Part shown: piece by piece, positions 1-6,000 of the stretch | Numbering within the stretch: the first letter of the stretch is position 1 | Layout of the letters: each line of letters starts with the position of its first letter | NCBI GenBank assembly: GCA_037133055.1 | Contig: JBAXOY010000076.1 | Span: forward strand, 1 to 15,277 | Length of the DNA: 15,277 nucleotides | Source: Chlamydiota bacterium | GTDB taxonomy: Bacteria > Auribacterota > Tritonobacteria > UBA1439 | Reading direction: 5' to 3' | Position numbers: made by a program

Positions 1-3000
1 ATCTGCGTCCCGGCGTTGAAGCGTGTAACGCTGGATTCCCGCTGGAGTTTACCCCGGCGAAAAGCGGGGCGGGAATGACATCCGGAAGAAGATACCCCCC
101 GTACGTGACCCAGTACTCCCCGTCCCCCCGCAAAAATAGTGCTGGTCGAACGGGCCGCTTTGGGCGATAATGGCTTTTTCAGCAGTTGGAATGGCCTGTC
201 TGTCGCGTCACACCGATCATTTCCGAAGGGGAGTAGCGCCATGCTGACCGCCAAGGACTATTACCGCGATCCGGAGGTGCAGGAGAGGATCGCCGAGTAC
301 TGCGGGGGGAGCGCCCAGGAGCCGGAGCTCTGCACCGCGGAGTACCTCGTCGGCTACGGGGAGGCCCTCATCGGCAACCTCGCCCCGGAACCGTACGTCT
401 CGACCCCCAAAAATGGGTTCCACTACATCCTCGACAACAGCCTGGACATCTTCCGTTCGCTCTGGGACCGGGTCCACACGCTCGGGGTCCTCGACGTGGA
501 ATATTTCAACATGGACTACCCCGGCGCGGTTTACCTCGACCAGGTCGGCGTCTTCACAAAGATCGAGCCGGTCTATCGCGCGATCCTGGACGTGTACGGG
601 CGCTACGGCATCCAGCCGATGGCCCTCATGACCGGGCAGGGGTACCATTTCTCGTTCCAGATCCAGTCGGGGACGAAGACCGACCTGATGATCGAGGAGT
701 TCGGGCGCCTGATCGACTCGCTCGAGGGCAAATACGAGGTCAACCTGAGCAAGCGGCACCGGAACGTGTCGCTCCGCCACGGGCGATCGTTCGACGGGAT
801 GGGGCGCGTCATGGAGTTCCTGGCCCACGAGGTCATCAAGGCCGCGGCCGCGGCGAGCCCGATCCCGGTCATGCTGACCGACGTCTCCGTCGGGCGCGTC
901 AAGGGCGGCCCGCGCGAGGCGGTCTCGGTCGACCTCTCCTGCTTCGGCGACCCGATCTATATGCGCGACCTCCGCTGCGCCTTCTCCACGCATCAGAAGC
1001 ACAAGGTCCAGCGCCACAAGGTCGGCGAGGAAATCGCCCAAGGCACGCCGGTCCAGGTGGCGATCCCGCGCGGGAAGCTCAGCCTCGACGAGTGCATGGC
1101 GATGCGCCGGCATTTCCGGAACTGCGCGGAGTACGCGAAGAAGACCTACTGCTTCATCCCCGATTTCTCGGTCAACTTCAAGAAGGTCATCCAGGATTAC
1201 AAGGAGTCGAAGCTGCACCGGTTCCACGAGTGGTTCAACAGCGAGAAGCAGGACCCGTGGACCGTGTGGGACAAGACCTACCGCGCCTTCGACATGCGCG
1301 TCCTGCCGCCCTGCGTCCAGCACTCGCTCCGCGTGCCGAACGACAACCTCCTGAAGCCCACCAACCTCCAGACGCTCACCCGCTGCCTCCTCGCCATCGG
1401 CTGGCACCCGCAGCACATCGCCGGCCTCGTGCGCTCCAAGTGGGAGGGGAACTACGGGTGGGGCCCCGACCGATGGGCGCACTTCGACGCGGGCTCACGC
1501 TCCTCGTTCTACGTGCGGCTCTTCTCCGGCCTCATGGCCGCGGGGGTGGACCGGCTGCTCGACCACAACTGCGTCTCCCACCTCGAGAAGGGCTTTTGCT
1601 GGCAGCCCAACTGCGGCTACAGCCTGGGGATGTACCACTGGAACGGCAAGTTCTGACCCCCCATGAACATGATCAGCCGCGTGATGTCGGAAGACGAGTT
1701 TCGCTCCATCCAGGGATACTACCTGCACGACACCGTCCGCGCCCGGGTTCGCGAGTTCTGCGGCGGAAACAAATTCACCTGCGAGTACCTCGTCGGCTTC
1801 GGCGAATTCCTCGTCCGGCAGGGCTACCGGCGGCCCCTGCGGCTTACCGGGGAGGATGGCCTGCCGGGATTGATGGACGAGGGGCTCGACCTGTTCCGCT
1901 CCGTGTGGGACCGCGAGTCCACGCTCGCCGTCTGGGACGTCGAGTATTTCAACCTTGACACCTGGTCGGGGCTCTACGGCGACCAGCTCCCCTACTTCGA
2001 GCTTATGGAGCCGACCTACCGCGCGATCGAGGGGCTCCTCAAGGGGTACGGCATCCCCCACCTGAACGACACGACCGCCTCCGGCTACCATTTCATATCG
2101 CGCCTCCCGTTCGACTCCCCGGTGCACACGCGGCTCGAGGCGATCGGGGCGCCCGAGAAGAGCCTGATGGAGAAATACGCGACGGTCCCGGGGGGCGACA
2201 ACAAGCGGATGCGCCCCCTCCCCGAGCGCGAAGCGAAGGGCTACAGCGGCATCGGGCGCCTGATGGAGTTCCTCTGCCACCGCGTCATCGAGAAGTCGCG
2301 CGGGCGGGGGCCGCTCCCCGTGATGATCTCGGACGTCGCGACCACCCGGACGCCGCGGGGCCGCGAGGGGATGAACCTCGACATCACGCAGTACGCCGAC
2401 CCGCTCTTCATGCGCGACATCCGGACCTCGTTCTCCACGCACCAGAAGCACAAGGTCTACGTCGGGCGCGTCGGCGAGGAGCTCGCCCGCGAGCTCCCGA
2501 TCTACGCCACCGTGCCGCGGGGCACGCTCTCCTGCACCGAGCTCCTCGAGATCAGGAGCAATCTGAACCGCGCCGCGGAGTACGCCGGGAAGGTTTCCTC
2601 CGCGATCCCGGACGCCGCGCGCGGGTGGGGGAAGGTCATCGACGACTACCTCGGCTCGCCGCTCCGCGCGTTCCACAAGGAGTTCGACTCGGTCGAGCAC
2701 GAGCCCTCGTGGAAGTGGCCGGAGACGTACCGGAGGCTCGACCTCGGCGGCATCCCCCCGTGCGCCGCGCAGGCGATCCGCAACTCGAGCTGGGGGCTCA
2801 TGACCCCGACGAGCATCCAGACGGTGTGCCGCACGCTCATGAGCTGCGGCTGGCACCCGAAGCACATCGGAGGGCTCATCCGCTCCCACTACGAGCAGCC
2901 GCTCGACTGGGGGACCGACTGGTCGAAGTACCACGCGGAGACGAGGGCGAACTTCTGGGCGAGGGTCTACTGCGGGCTCATCGCGACGGGGCTCGACCCG

Positions 3001-6000
3001 CTCGGCGACTTCAACTGCGTCTCCCAGCAGGAGAAGGGCTTCTGCCCCTCCCCCTGGTGCGGCTTCAACCTCGAGGAGCGTAAGGAAGCGCTCCTGGCGA
3101 AGTAGGCGGAAAAACTCCCAGGAGCCTCGGCGGGACCGTCCGCTACTCTTCTTTCTTCGACTCGAAATAATCGTCGTCTTTGCAGCCGGGGAACTTGAAC
3201 ACCGCGGGGGTGCAGGTGCCGCGCGTGAGGACCTTCAGAATGCACGTGTAGGTGTTCCCCACCTTGATCCCGTACTTGTCGATGTACTTCTCCCCGGGAT
3301 ACCAGGAGTTCGCCAGGCGGAAGAGGTGCTCGCGGTCGACGACCTTGCGTGCCCAATCCTGCCTTATCAGGGCGTCGGTTTTGAACGAGAACCATATCTC
3401 GCACCCCGGGTAGCCTGGGCCGCCCGTGGCGAGAACCTGCTTCCCCGATGCGGCGCTGATCTCCATCTTCGTGATCGTCGCCGTGCCCGCGTAGTCCACA
3501 TAGTCGCACGGCCCGCCGACCTTCATCTTCTCCCGGCTTTCCGGTTTCACGCGCATCGCCTCTCCTTCCGCGAACGCCCCCGCGAGGCACAGAAACCCCG
3601 CGAGCATTCCGCACCACACGATCCGTGTCTTCACGTCTCCCTCCCTGTTGCCGTGCATGCTTTCGGTCTTGAACTTTTGCCTTCGGCCGCCGTCCCATGC
3701 TCAACGCGGAATGACGAAATCCGAGTGACATTCGAACGACCCGCCATCCAAGAACCGTTTCAGTAGCCGCCCTTCGCGGCCTTGCCCGTCACGAGTGCGA
3801 CCGACTGGCTCGCGCCGATGCGGTTGGCGCCGGCCGCGATGAGCGCATAGGCGAACTCCCGAGTCTTGACGCCCCCGCTCGCCTTGATGAGCACCTCGTC
3901 CCCCACGACCTCGCGCATGAGCTTCACGTCCTCGACCGTCGCGCCGCCCTCCTCCTTGCCGGTCGAGGTCTTGATGAACCGCGCCCCGGCGGTCTTCGCC
4001 AGGCAGCAGGCGCATACCTTCTCGTACGTGGTGAGGAGCCCCGTCTCGATGATGACCTTCACCGGCTTCTCCTCGCAGGCCTTCACCACCTGCTGGATAT
4101 CCTCGAGGACCAGGATGTAGTGCCTGCTCTTCAGGGCGCTGACATTGATCACCATGTCGATCTCCTGCGCCCCCCTCCGCACGATGGCGTCGTGCGCCTC
4201 GAACGCCTTGGCGACCGGGGTCATCTGCCCGTGGGGAAAGCCGACCACCGCGATCGGGATGACGTCGGAGCCCTTGAGCTTCGCGGCCACGTACTCCACG
4301 TCCCCGGAGAAGACGCAGACCGACCTGAAATGGTACTTCTTCGCCTCCGCGCAGGCGCGGTCGAAGTCGGCCTTCTTCGCGTCCGTCTTCAGAAGCGTGT
4401 GGTCGATCAGCCTCGCCAGCTCCCGGTCATACTCGAGTTCCTTCATCGCGATCCTCTCCCGCGCCACGGCGCTCCCCCGCCGCGGCTTAACCCTCAGTCA
4501 CCGGATGCAATGAAACCTTTTCCCCTCCCCCCTTGAGGGGGAGGGTCAGGGTGGGGGGTAGAAACAAACACCCCGTACATGAGGCATGACGCCGCGGCCT
4601 ACAGTTTGAGCTCCACGTTCTGCCCGTCCTGGATCATGAGCTCCGGGACGATCTCCGAGAGGGAATGCCCGTGCTCGGTCTGCTGCATCTTCAGGGTGTA
4701 GACCCCCGGCGGAACCGGCACGGGGCCCCACTCGCCGTTGACGGTGATGACCTCTTTTCCCGTCCCCTTCGCGATGAGGACCCACCGGTAGGGAGGCGGC
4801 GCGCCGGGCGCCGACGGGGCGATGCCGAGCCCCGTGTTCACATCCACGCCCAGGCATTTCCCGCGAGTGACGGTCACCGATTTCGCGAGGCAGATCTCGC
4901 TCGATCCGTGCTCCCACTGCCGGTACCAGAGCGAGTATATCCCGGCGGGCGCCGGAACGGCGTCCCACGCGCCGCTCGCCTTCACGACATCTTTCCCGCT
5001 CGCGGGATCCCTGAGCAGCCAGTAATACGGCGGATCCTTCACCCACTTCGCCGGGACGAGGTGGATGCCGGTGTCGAGCTTCAGCACCGCCGTCTCGCCG
5101 GCCCTGACCGCCGCCTCCACGCCGAGGTCGGTGTCGCTCGCGCCGTGCTCGGACTGCCGCCACACGATGCGGTACGCTCCTGGGGGCAGCGAGATCTCCT
5201 CGATTTTCCCCTTGAGGGACGCGACCTCACGGCCGTCGGCCGCCGACAGCACCTTCACCGAGTACGGCTCCTTCCCCACCCATGCCGCGGGATCGATGCG
5301 GAGTCTCCCGACCGCCGCGACCTTCACCGTGACCGACTCCGGCTCCTTCTTCAGCGCCTGCCCCTGCGCCTTCGCGAGCGCCTCGTTCAGGCCCGGCGCG
5401 GGGAGGGCGAGAAGCGCCGCGGCCGTCATGCCGTACCATCTCATATTCCCGCCATGCCTCCCGATCGACCACCGCAACCGCACCATGATGATTCTATACC
5501 AGATGACCCTGCCCAATCCATCAAAAAAGCCCGGGCGGCGATCACCCCGGGATACGGGGGTTACTTGTGGGGGGCATTCTCACCCCCCACCCCGACCCCG
5601 CCCCTCAAGGGGGGAGGGGAATAAGGCCGAACTCCTTCCGTAATCGAGGTGCGAATTTTGTGTGTCGAATTTTGTGTCGTACCGGTGTATGAGATTCGCT
5701 ATCATAGGGATCCGAGCGGATTCCATTTTTCCAGAGACGGTCTGTTGTTTCGACAGGGGGCCCGCGGATAGTTCCCCGATTACACGGAGCGGCAGTTCGA
5801 GGCGGAGTTCACCCCGTATTTCACACCGGCAGCGAAAGAGCGCCTCGCGGACTCCGGCCGGGTCATCTACGGAATTGAGGTGACGGCATGAGGAATGACG
5901 CCCCGTCGAGGGGCTATGCGGAAGTCCTTTACGCCGCCGCGCTTTTCAGTTTCACGCTGCTCTTCTTCGCGCCGCTGGTGATCTACTATCTCAATGCCGA

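What a model noticed while it worked through the whole genome (the two positions that open the first line are those of the whole stretch)
241..3105. Tandem pair of chromosomal PriS-PriL-type fused primases in a bacterium
g01990 and g01991 (471 and 480 aa, no Pfam or NCBIfam match) are archaeo-eukaryotic primase-polymerases: an AEP catalytic domain fused to a C-terminal four-cysteine helical domain like the PriL Fe-S domain. They are a conserved chromosomal tandem pair, not a mobile-element gene, and belong to an undescribed bacterial family that in other phyla is single-copy in an operon with a TIM-barrel (AP_endonuc_2-like) gene and hisS-aspS. DnaG is also present.
Evidence so far: Found in 22 of 23 genomes of the clade at 62-91% identity, nearly always as two adjacent copies, and 0 of the other 56 phylum genomes. 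Alignment of 60 homologs: invariant D85-x-E87, H136, D231 (AEP motifs) and C358, C444, C453, C458; both paralogs keep them (103). AlphaFold pLDDT 93; Foldseek best hits Prim-PolC and LigD-Pol (E 5e-4, prob 1.0), then primases (91, 98). C-terminal domain alone: top of 48,161 chains is the eukaryotic primase large-subunit Fe-S domain (Z 5.4), followed by photolyases and PriX (129); 5 of 35 members hit Pfam DNA_primase_lrg weakly (124). ESM Atlas neighbours are unnamed bacterial clusters, then fused PriS+PriL proteins of Nanobdellota (97). 370 GTDB stretches enc [...]
(Added by a program. Inside this text positions count along the whole contig: contig position 1 is position 1 of the stretch shown here. 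"Call 12" and the like, gene names such as g00115 and contig names such as C1 are that model's own, and its searches are not shown. The text may have been shortened before it was handed on; [...] marks where a part breaks off. The agent that wrote the report below was given it as the finding of a first reader that could run no searches.)

Follow-up and report, generated by a model that had tools for sequence, protein, structure and literature searches.

The report
Paired archaeal-type primase enzymes in bacteria
Two neighbouring unannotated genes in a little-known freshwater bacterium encode predicted relatives of the enzyme that starts DNA copying in archaea and eukaryotes; the bacterium already has its own normal primase, so they probably do an extra DNA-repair or restart job that has not been tested.

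Summary
Confirmed. Window 241-1656 (A, 471 aa) and 1663-3105 (B, 480 aa; 41% identical) encode an AEP primase-polymerase domain (VIA Z 17.1 to Prim-PolC; motifs D85/E87, H136, D231) fused to a four-cysteine domain homologous to the PriL C-terminal Fe-S domain. The closest sequence profile tested is the fused DPANN primase (HHalign 95% end to end, all four cysteines in register, controls at most 1.1%). The pair is in 22 of 23 genomes of six families, 0 of 56 other phylum genomes, and no virus or plasmid searched. The host keeps DnaG, PolA, Nfo and a Y-family polymerase. A-then-B order recurs in two other lineages, and Elusimicrobiota B copies lack all four cysteines. In a distant branch, an endonuclease-IV-superfamily barrel follows the gene in 72 of 72 assessable loci, often among stress genes; it is fused in three family members. 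hisS-aspS is only local synteny. Best reading: an auxiliary priming and gap-filling unit for damaged DNA (about 0.5). No activity is shown. The scan noted this family before on other genomes.

The parts
226..233 (+). purine-rich ribosome-binding-like site 7 nt before the ATG of gene A
   Evidence: read from the sequence; not tested
241..1656 (+). gene A: 471-aa AEP primase-polymerase fused to a four-cysteine PriL-CTD-like domain (A subfamily)
241..1200 (+). gene A, AEP catalytic domain (about residues 1-320)
   Evidence: VIA Z 15.3-17.1 to LigD-Pol/Prim-PolC, 11.4-11.9 to archaeal PriS
493..501 (+). gene A motif I, D85-x-E87
   Evidence: D85 in 179 of 184 rows, E/D87 in 180 of 184
631..648 (+). 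gene A motif II, T131-G-Q-G-Y-H136
   Evidence: H136 in 174 of 184 rows
931..999 (+). gene A motif III D231 with R242, R245, K253 (PriS-like pattern)
   Evidence: D231 in 182 of 184, R242 180, R245 178, K253 168; aligned with the DPANN primase motif
1273..1635 (+). gene A C-terminal helical domain with C358, C444, C453, C458 (predicted Fe-S ligands) and K372
   Evidence: cysteines in 181, 180, 179, 164 of 184 rows; VIA Z 6.8 to yeast PriL Fe-S domain; in register with DPANN PriL cysteines
1657..1662 (+). 6-nt spacer between A stop and B start, suggesting one operon
   Evidence: similarly short in several relatives, longer in others
1663..3105 (+). gene B: 480-aa paralogue of the B subfamily; keeps D92/E94, H143, D240 and C367, C452, C461, C466; no basic residue at the K372 position
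   Evidence: dN/dS 0.17-0.40 against three relatives
2722..3072 (+). gene B C-terminal four-cysteine domain (about residues 354-470)
   Evidence: aligned to the A domain; not folded separately
3129..3144 (+). short hairpin with T-rich tail after gene B, possible terminator
   Evidence: 1 found against 1.8 expected by chance, so weak

Best explanation
A and B are host-encoded single-chain primase-polymerases of the PriS-PriL-CTD design that do auxiliary synthesis on damaged or stalled chromosomal DNA, not bulk replication. Step 1 (well supported, about 0.9): each AEP domain adds nucleotides on a template by two-metal catalysis at D85/E87/D231 with H136, R245 and K253 holding the incoming triphosphate. 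Step 2 (inferred, about 0.6): the four-cysteine domain binds a [4Fe-4S] cluster, grips the template and the 5' triphosphate of the first nucleotide, and lets A start chains de novo. Step 3 (inferred, about 0.35): B, which has lost the loop lysine and in Elusimicrobiota the whole cysteine set, is specialised for extending or filling. Step 4 (inferred, about 0.5): the cellular job is repair or restart under stress. In most other lineages an endonuclease-IV-superfamily partner would cut or clean 3' ends for the AEP; in this clade that partner was not found and the host's own Nfo could serve. An aromatic residue (F71) where RNA-preferring AEPs have histidine hints at dNTP use here (weak).
For: Fold: Prim-PolC Z 17.1, LigD-Pol 15.3-15.8, PriS 11.4-11.9; all 13 chains with Z>=8 are AEPs. 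Motifs and cysteines kept across 184 full-length homologues and in both paralogue sets; purifying selection on both genes. Colinear match to DPANN fused primase, 95% against at most 1.1% in 14 controls; NEQ395 of that design is an active primase whose PriL part is needed for initiation (PMC10250227 passages). DnaG, PolA, Nfo and a Y-family polymerase are all in the host, so the pair is extra. Barrel partner directly downstream in 72 of 80 distant-branch loci, the other 8 cut by contig ends, fused in P0160, P0163 and L094; it keeps the metal-ligand set of endonuclease IV. USP, Hsp20 or CBS genes lie in 26 of 47 such loci of 6 kb or more. Precedent: Prim-PolC fills gaps after EndoIV in stationary-phase repair (PMC5663958 passages).
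Against: No activity data. No family-wide link to repair genes: among neighbours of 80 distant-branch loci PolX appears in 2 and NAD ligase in 1, Ku, LigD or glycosylases in none identified. The partner is closer to uncharacterised MJ1311 (E 1.7e-40) than to EndoIV (E 3.7e-12 or worse), and its best NCBIfam match is the small-molecule phosphodiesterase CbiR, below cut-off, with nfo far weaker. The partner was not found in this clade, so the strongest context clue does not apply directly to the window. The PriL arginine pair needed for initiation in NEQ395 has no clear counterpart. The PriL structural match is modest and tied with photolyases. No LexA-like box or CIRCE upstream. The stress-gene count has no background control and the loci are not independent.
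Confidence: 0.5

Rival explanations
1. Synthase-hydrolase pair for a small nucleotide product: the AEP makes a short oligonucleotide or nucleotidylates a non-DNA acceptor under stress, and the barrel partner is the phosphodiesterase that removes it; A and B make different products or steps.
For: Near-obligate two-gene coupling and fusion; partner's best family is the cobamide phosphodiesterase CbiR rather than nfo; neighbours are general-stress and nucleotide-sensing genes (USP, CBS, CRP) rather than repair genes; one member is fused to CBS domains (P0189).
Against: The C-terminal domain is the template- and primer-gripping module of replicative primases; the window's clade keeps two synthases and no detected hydrolase partner; no receptor or effector gene is conserved nearby.
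Confidence: 0.2
2. True second replicative primase: A (with B) primes the chromosome in normal growth alongside or instead of DnaG.
For: Architecture and profile of the DPANN replicative primase; near-universal vertical retention in six families; PriL is described as almost confined to chromosomal replication primases (PMC5862659 passage).
Against: Intact DnaG in the host and over cut-off in 4 of 5 other carriers, fragmented by contig ends in the fifth; missing from 56 other phylum genomes and from G051 at 95% completeness; patchy elsewhere, 21 of 251 and 10 of 351 genomes in two phyla; no replication genes conserved nearby; broken in Verrucomicrobium sp. 3C.
Confidence: 0.1
3. RNA-end or tRNA repair: the AEP adds nucleotides to broken RNA after the partner clears the 3' end.
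For: Adjacent to hisS-aspS in 22 loci with the partner and to cysS in one pair; AEP domains in predicted RNA-repair systems are mentioned in PMC5862659 (passage).
Against: The hisS link is confined to one group of related genomes and absent from the 80 distant-branch loci; no RNA ligase or Hen1-type gene identified among neighbours.
Confidence: 0.08
4. Domesticated mobile-element or defence primase with no present host role, or part of an anti-phage system.
For: AEP plus PriL-CTD-like domains occur in CAPP, DRT7/UG10 and plasmid primases; patchy phylum-level spread implies some transfer.
Against: No relatives in viral contigs (two scans), 72,556 plasmids or 50,697 phages; no PADLOC or PHROGs hit for A or B; no cas, helicase, integrase or reverse transcriptase conserved nearby; purifying selection; both subtrees recover matching lineage groups.
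Confidence: 0.07

Closest known systems
Monomeric DPANN primase, NEQ395 of Nanoarchaeum equitans (PMC10250227)
   Same: One chain of similar size with PriS-type AEP domain, helical linker and four-cysteine PriL C-terminal domain; colinear profile match over 371 columns with motifs I-III and all four cysteines in register.
   Different: Archaeal and the sole replicative primase; here bacterial, beside DnaG, in two subfamilies. The R301/R303 pair and the H58/H202 residues have no clear counterpart. Local-mode probability is only 57%, so the relation is distant.
Prim-PolC (with LigC, EndoIV) and LigD polymerase domain (PMC5663958; PDB 6sa0, 2iru, 2fao)
   Same: Best structural matches of the catalytic domain (Z 15.3-17.1); host-encoded bacterial AEPs; PolC works with EndoIV in repair.
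   Different: They have no four-cysteine domain and sit with ligases or Ku; no LigD-Pol or Ku in this host. No profile match to six LigD-Pol sequences (shallow profile). The model aligns from about residue 30 of these chains, so their N-terminal segment is missing.
CRISPR-associated Prim-Pol CAPP_A (PMC8211822) and DRT7/UG10 primase-PriL-CTD (bioRxiv 10.64898/2026.02.16.706125)
   Same: Bacterial AEP followed by a PriL-CTD/PriCT-like domain, with conserved cysteines in MpCAPP; CAPP domain matches at Z 11.7.
   Different: Those carry TPR, RT or helicase domains and lie in CRISPR or defence loci; this family has none of these and no PADLOC hit.
PolpTN2 and PrimPol-PV1 families (PMC3973330, PMC5862659)
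   Same: PriS-like domain fused to a PriL-like Fe-S region.
   Different: Plasmid, phage or integrated-element encoded, larger, PolpTN2 with Gln for the motif II His; this family keeps His and was not found on mobile DNA.
PriX of Sulfolobus PriSLX (PDB 5of3)
   Same: A PriL-CTD-like helical domain without Fe-S cluster, as in the cysteine-less Elusimicrobiota B copies; weak fold match Z 4.3.
   Different: PriX is a small non-catalytic subunit; B keeps a whole AEP domain with its acidic triad and histidine.

Membership tests
AEP / Prim-Pol superfamily | alpha/beta plus RRM-like catalytic fold | tested here: met
   all 13 chains with VIA Z>=8 are AEPs, top Z 17.1, rmsd 3.7, 254 aligned; predicted model, pLDDT 94.5
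AEP / Prim-Pol superfamily | motifs I (hhhDhD/E), II (sxH), III (hD/E), as defined in PMC10345425 | tested here: met
   D85 179, E/D87 180, H136 174, D231 182 of 184 rows; kept in A and B
AEP / Prim-Pol superfamily | template-directed nucleotide addition | not testable with these tools
   needs purified protein
PriS-PriL fused (NEQ395-type) primase | AEP and PriL-CTD in one chain, colinear | tested here: met
   HHalign global 95.1%, 371 columns; domain by domain 54% and 59%; crossed domains 0.1-0.3%; 14 controls at most 1.1%
PriS-PriL fused (NEQ395-type) primase | four cysteines placed as the [4Fe-4S] ligands | tested here: met
   C358/444/453/458 align with the DPANN cysteines; conserved in 164-181 of 184 rows; cluster binding itself untested
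PriS-PriL fused (NEQ395-type) primase | PriL-CTD fold | tested here: inconclusive
   top of 48,161 chains at Z 6.8, rmsd 3.6, 110 aligned, but tied with photolyases at 5.9-6.2; Foldseek finds PriL only at E 6.5; Pfam DNA_primase_lrg weak in 7 of 77, Terminase_5 in 8 of 77
PriS-PriL fused (NEQ395-type) primase | initiation arginines R301/R303 and F306 of the PriL part | tested here: inconclusive
   only K372 is basic in that loop: Lys in 20 of 20 tandem A rows, basic in 1 of 20 B rows; register differs by two residues between spacing and HHalign
PriS-PriL fused (NEQ395-type) primase | is the cell's replicative primase | tested here: inconclusive
   DnaG present and patchy spread argue against; no genetic test
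LigD-Pol / Prim-PolC (NHEJ and LigC systems) | Pfam LigD_Prim-Pol match | tested here: not met
   no Pfam hit for A or B at E<=1; family search finds none in the host
LigD-Pol / Prim-PolC (NHEJ and LigC systems) | operon or fusion with ATP-dependent ligase or Ku | tested here: not met
   none among neighbours identified; no Ku in the 92%-complete host genome
CAPP / DRT7 / mobile-element Prim-Pols | cas, RT, helicase or mobile-element context | tested here: not met
   neighbourhoods; no viral, plasmid or phage hits; no PADLOC or PHROGs hit
Endonuclease IV (Nfo), for the partner gene in other genomes | nine metal ligands (list recalled; partly confirmed in PMC2770678 and PMC13113976 passages) | tested here: met
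   invariant in 17 of 17; 65-67 of 67 distant-branch partners; eight align with Nfo ligands, the ninth lies just past the aligned end
Endonuclease IV (Nfo), for the partner gene in other genomes | score over the nfo family cut-off | tested here: not met
   20-27 bits against cut-off 129.65
Endonuclease IV (Nfo), for the partner gene in other genomes | minor-groove residues Arg37, Tyr72, Leu73 | tested here: inconclusive
   aromatic residue at the Tyr72-like position in most rows, no conserved Arg near the Arg37 loop

The most novel reading that the evidence does not exclude
An old, vertically kept bacterial lineage of archaeal-type iron-sulfur primases, related to the DPANN monomeric primase, gives these bacteria DnaG-independent priming on their own chromosome, with A as initiator and B as a dedicated extender that takes over the primer: a primase-to-polymerase hand-off built from two paralogues.
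Probability: 0.2. Interest if true: 0.9.

Novelty: new variant of a known kind. Interest (0 to 1): 0.7.

Why it matters
Host-encoded bacterial AEPs described in the papers read are repair polymerases without a PriL-type domain (LigD-Pol, Prim-PolC); bacterial AEPs that carry such a domain belong to plasmids, phages, CRISPR or defence loci. This family combines the archaeal replicative-primase design with a stable chromosomal home in bacteria that keep DnaG, and is large (492 representatives at 50% clustering) yet unannotated. If it primes DNA, it is a candidate bacterial repriming or repair primase and bears on how primases are shared between domains. Natural variants with and without the four cysteines make the open question of what the primase Fe-S cluster does directly testable, and the partner gives a handle on the untested MJ1311-like barrels.

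Tried and rejected
Sequence searches of solved structures with A or its alignment found nothing. Foldseek gave no hit at E<=0.001 in PDB (whole protein; CTD) or viral models. A complex prediction of A with B returned no answer (score 0.00). 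A first whole-length HHalign of the narrow 100-row alignment to DPANN primases was weak (2.5%); the 184-row alignment gave 57% local and 95% global; the DPANN CTD profile hit 0 of 184 family rows at E<=0.01 while the reverse hit 15 of 28. 'Recent clade-specific duplication' was rejected (the group was named after earlier trees were seen). 'Replaces a missing enzyme' was rejected: DnaG, PolA, Nfo and a Y-family polymerase are present. 'B always replaces the barrel partner' fails: G162 has A-B and an unlinked partner at 297 bits, 1 of 5 tested. 'Cysteine-less forms always accompany A' fails: a divergent cysteine-less group had no four-cysteine copy detected in G213 and five Verrucomicrobiota-phylum genomes. 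No LexA-like box in 42 upstream regions, no CIRCE in 64, no sigma-70 site in the window; these patterns were recalled. No fusion of 910-2595 aa found (weak). A metagenome scan with the fused protein P0163 found nothing. RNA-library contigs touch A and B from a relative but also other genes and cannot show transcription. Names and taxa of cluster members could not be looked up, and the annotated record of Verrucomicrobium sp. 3C is not held. Nine literature searches returned no description of this family; supplements were not read and subscription papers are not covered.

Full report
Observation. The window holds two co-oriented ORFs, A at 241-1656 (471 aa) and B at 1663-3105 (480 aa), 6 nt apart and 41% identical. 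Neither matches Pfam, NCBIfam, PADLOC, PHROGs or a PDB sequence. Their neighbours in the window (deoC, sulfatase-like, glycosyltransferase, methyltransferases, hemD) are unrelated housekeeping genes. The closest named relatives are Candidatus Auribacterota. A contig from another sample bridges the A/B junction, and both genes are under purifying selection against three relatives (dN/dS 0.09-0.26 for A, 0.17-0.40 for B).

Distribution. 22 of 79 phylum genomes carry the family, all in six families totalling 23 genomes; the copies are adjacent in 21 of 22 and four genomes show a third match. The family is large: 492 representatives at E<=0.001 and 383 confirmed stretches in species-level genomes, of which the best 80 (73 loci) were kept. 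It is patchy elsewhere: 21 of 251 genomes in the phylum of an Endomicrobiia record and 10 of 351 in the phylum of a Verrucomicrobium record. It was not found in viral contigs (two scans), plasmids or phages. One copy lies in a Nanoarchaeota bin that also has its own fused primase; transfer or mis-binning was not resolved.

Catalytic domain. The model is confident (pLDDT 94.5, pTM 0.93). All 13 chains with VIA Z>=8 among 48,161 are AEPs: Prim-PolC 17.1 (rmsd 3.7, 254 aligned), LigD-Pol 15.3-15.8, archaeal PriS 11.4-11.9, CAPP 11.7. Foldseek ranks the same families first but none at E<=0.001. In 184 full-length rows (87 of 95 locus hits, 95 of 149 representatives and the two window proteins; partial rows dropped) D85 is kept in 179, E/D87 in 180, H136 in 174 and D231 in 182, matching motifs I-III as defined in PMC10345425 (first of 7 parts and passages read).

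C-terminal domain. C358, C444, C453 and C458 are kept in 181, 180, 179 and 164 of those 184 rows (the length filter disfavours cysteine-less forms). Folded alone the domain's top match is the yeast PriL Fe-S domain (Z 6.8, rmsd 3.6, 110 aligned), tied with photolyases; PriX scores 4.3; Foldseek gives nothing significant; Pfam DNA_primase_lrg is hit weakly by 7 of 77 rows and an unrelated family by 8. Because structure alone was modest, I fetched 28 fused primases from the class of a Nanoarchaeota genome. The family profile matches them end to end: 95.1% in global mode over 371 columns with motifs I-III and all four cysteines in register, 57% in local mode, 54% and 59% domain by domain, against at most 1.1% for 12 block shuffles, a reversed profile and a barrel profile. 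Six LigD-Pol sequences gave no match, though that profile is shallow. The ESM Atlas independently lists unnamed bacterial clusters first, then archaeal PriS, PriX and Nanobdellota PriS+PriL clusters. The design is that of NEQ395, an active monomeric primase whose PriL part is needed for initiation while single cysteine mutants stay active (PMC10250227, passages). Its initiation arginines have no clear counterpart here; K372 is the only basic residue in that loop.

A and B are old subfamilies. In four trees the second copies fall on one side of a strongly supported branch; in the careful tree of 41 rows support is 100/100, and a tree with this clade's A and B together is rejected (p-AU 5e-68; group named after earlier trees, long branches present). 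A-then-B order recurs in two genomes of another lineage (L050, L052) and in 8 Elusimicrobiota-phylum genomes. All 20 four-cysteine B rows keep the catalytic residues, but only 1 of 20 has a basic residue at position 372, against 20 of 20 A rows. The 12 Elusimicrobiota B rows examined have lost all four cysteines and R16, R72, D237 and R420 yet keep the acidic triad (one row differs at position 87), the histidine, R242, R245 and K253. This suggests division of labour, A initiating and B extending; that step is inference. A further divergent cysteine-less group, seen without a four-cysteine copy in six genomes, has His where A and B have F71. That position plausibly corresponds to the sugar-selecting residue (His in NEQ395, Tyr in human PrimPol), which hints at dNTP use, but it is small and variable in the distant branch.

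The partner gene. It follows the AEP gene in 26 of 55 genome loci outside this clade and in 72 of 80 metagenome loci of the distant branch, the other 8 ending within 160 bases of the AEP; it is fused in P0160, P0163 and, in broken form, L094. It keeps the endonuclease IV metal-ligand set (list of nine recalled, partly confirmed in passages of PMC2770678 and PMC13113976). But its nearest structure is uncharacterised MJ1311 (E 1.7e-40, EndoIV 3.7e-12 or worse), listed only as a predicted EndoIV in PMC2770678, and its best NCBIfam match is CbiR below cut-off. It was not found in this clade: 0 of 18 loci, and best whole-genome scores of 90 bits or less against about 250-300 for true partners. hisS lies beside the gene in 23 of 55 loci of related genomes and in none of the distant-branch clusters, so it is local synteny. 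In the distant branch USP, Hsp20 or CBS genes lie in 26 of 47 loci of 6 kb or more (no background control, loci not independent); PolX appears in 2 loci and NAD ligase in 1.

How it most likely works. The host has DnaG, PolA, Nfo and a Y-family polymerase, and no LigD-Pol or Ku was found at 92% completeness, so the pair is extra capacity. I read A as a primase-polymerase able to start chains, B as an extension-biased paralogue, and the module as stress-linked synthesis on damaged DNA, with the barrel or host Nfo preparing 3' ends, as EndoIV does for Prim-PolC (PMC5663958, passages). Confidence is about 0.9 for AEP chemistry, 0.6 for priming and 0.5 for a repair or restart role. The main rival is a synthase-phosphodiesterase pair for a small nucleotide (0.2); a replicative role (0.1), RNA repair (0.08) and a mobile or defence relic (0.07) follow.

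Novelty. AEP plus PriL-CTD fusions are known from DPANN archaea, PolpTN2, CAPP and DRT7/UG10 (passages), and a 2018 survey found its bacterial AEP families almost only on mobile elements (PMC5862659, passages; its supplements were not read and could list members). PMC12770985 (passages) added nothing. Nine searches found no description of this family. The scan's own notes record the same family on other genomes, one as a tandem pair; these are unchecked notes and not independent support. Verdict: a real, apparently undescribed family of a known superfamily, in a new chromosomal setting, with untested function.

Noticed in passing
window:5804-9712: A 1951-bp tandem duplication with 6 mismatches carries two identical 621-aa sulfatase-like membrane genes (5888-7753, 7839-9704); a recent amplification or an assembly artefact.
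   Followed up: partly
window:8-100, 14006-14076, 4520-4559, 5582-5621: Short dispersed inverted-repeat elements in intergenic DNA; reads from other loci pile up on them.
   Followed up: no
G055-G072 (phylum families f18-f22): No DNA polymerase I domain (PF00476) found in any of these 18 genomes, against 57 of the other 61; they also lack this AEP family, so what replaces PolA there is open.
   Followed up: no
L261-L265, L267-L271, L154: A divergent cysteine-less branch of the family, up to three copies per genome and convergent pairs in three genomes, with no four-cysteine copy or barrel partner seen in the loci.
   Followed up: partly
L094:8001-10184: In Verrucomicrobium sp. 3C the AEP is fused to the barrel but interrupted by a TGA and frame breaks.
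   Followed up: partly
L156:5297-6829, L157:5435-6892, L158:5475-6935: Third, unlinked four-cysteine copies in three clade genomes group with the Elusimicrobiota first copies, not with local A or B.
   Followed up: partly
P0189: A family member fused to N-terminal CBS domains.
   Followed up: no
L141-L148: thiM-thiE lie directly upstream of the Elusimicrobiota A-B pairs checked, probably local synteny.
   Followed up: no
window:3143-3658 and 4599-5516: Two minus-strand ORFs (171 and 305 aa) with signal-peptide-like starts and no convincing Pfam match.
   Followed up: no
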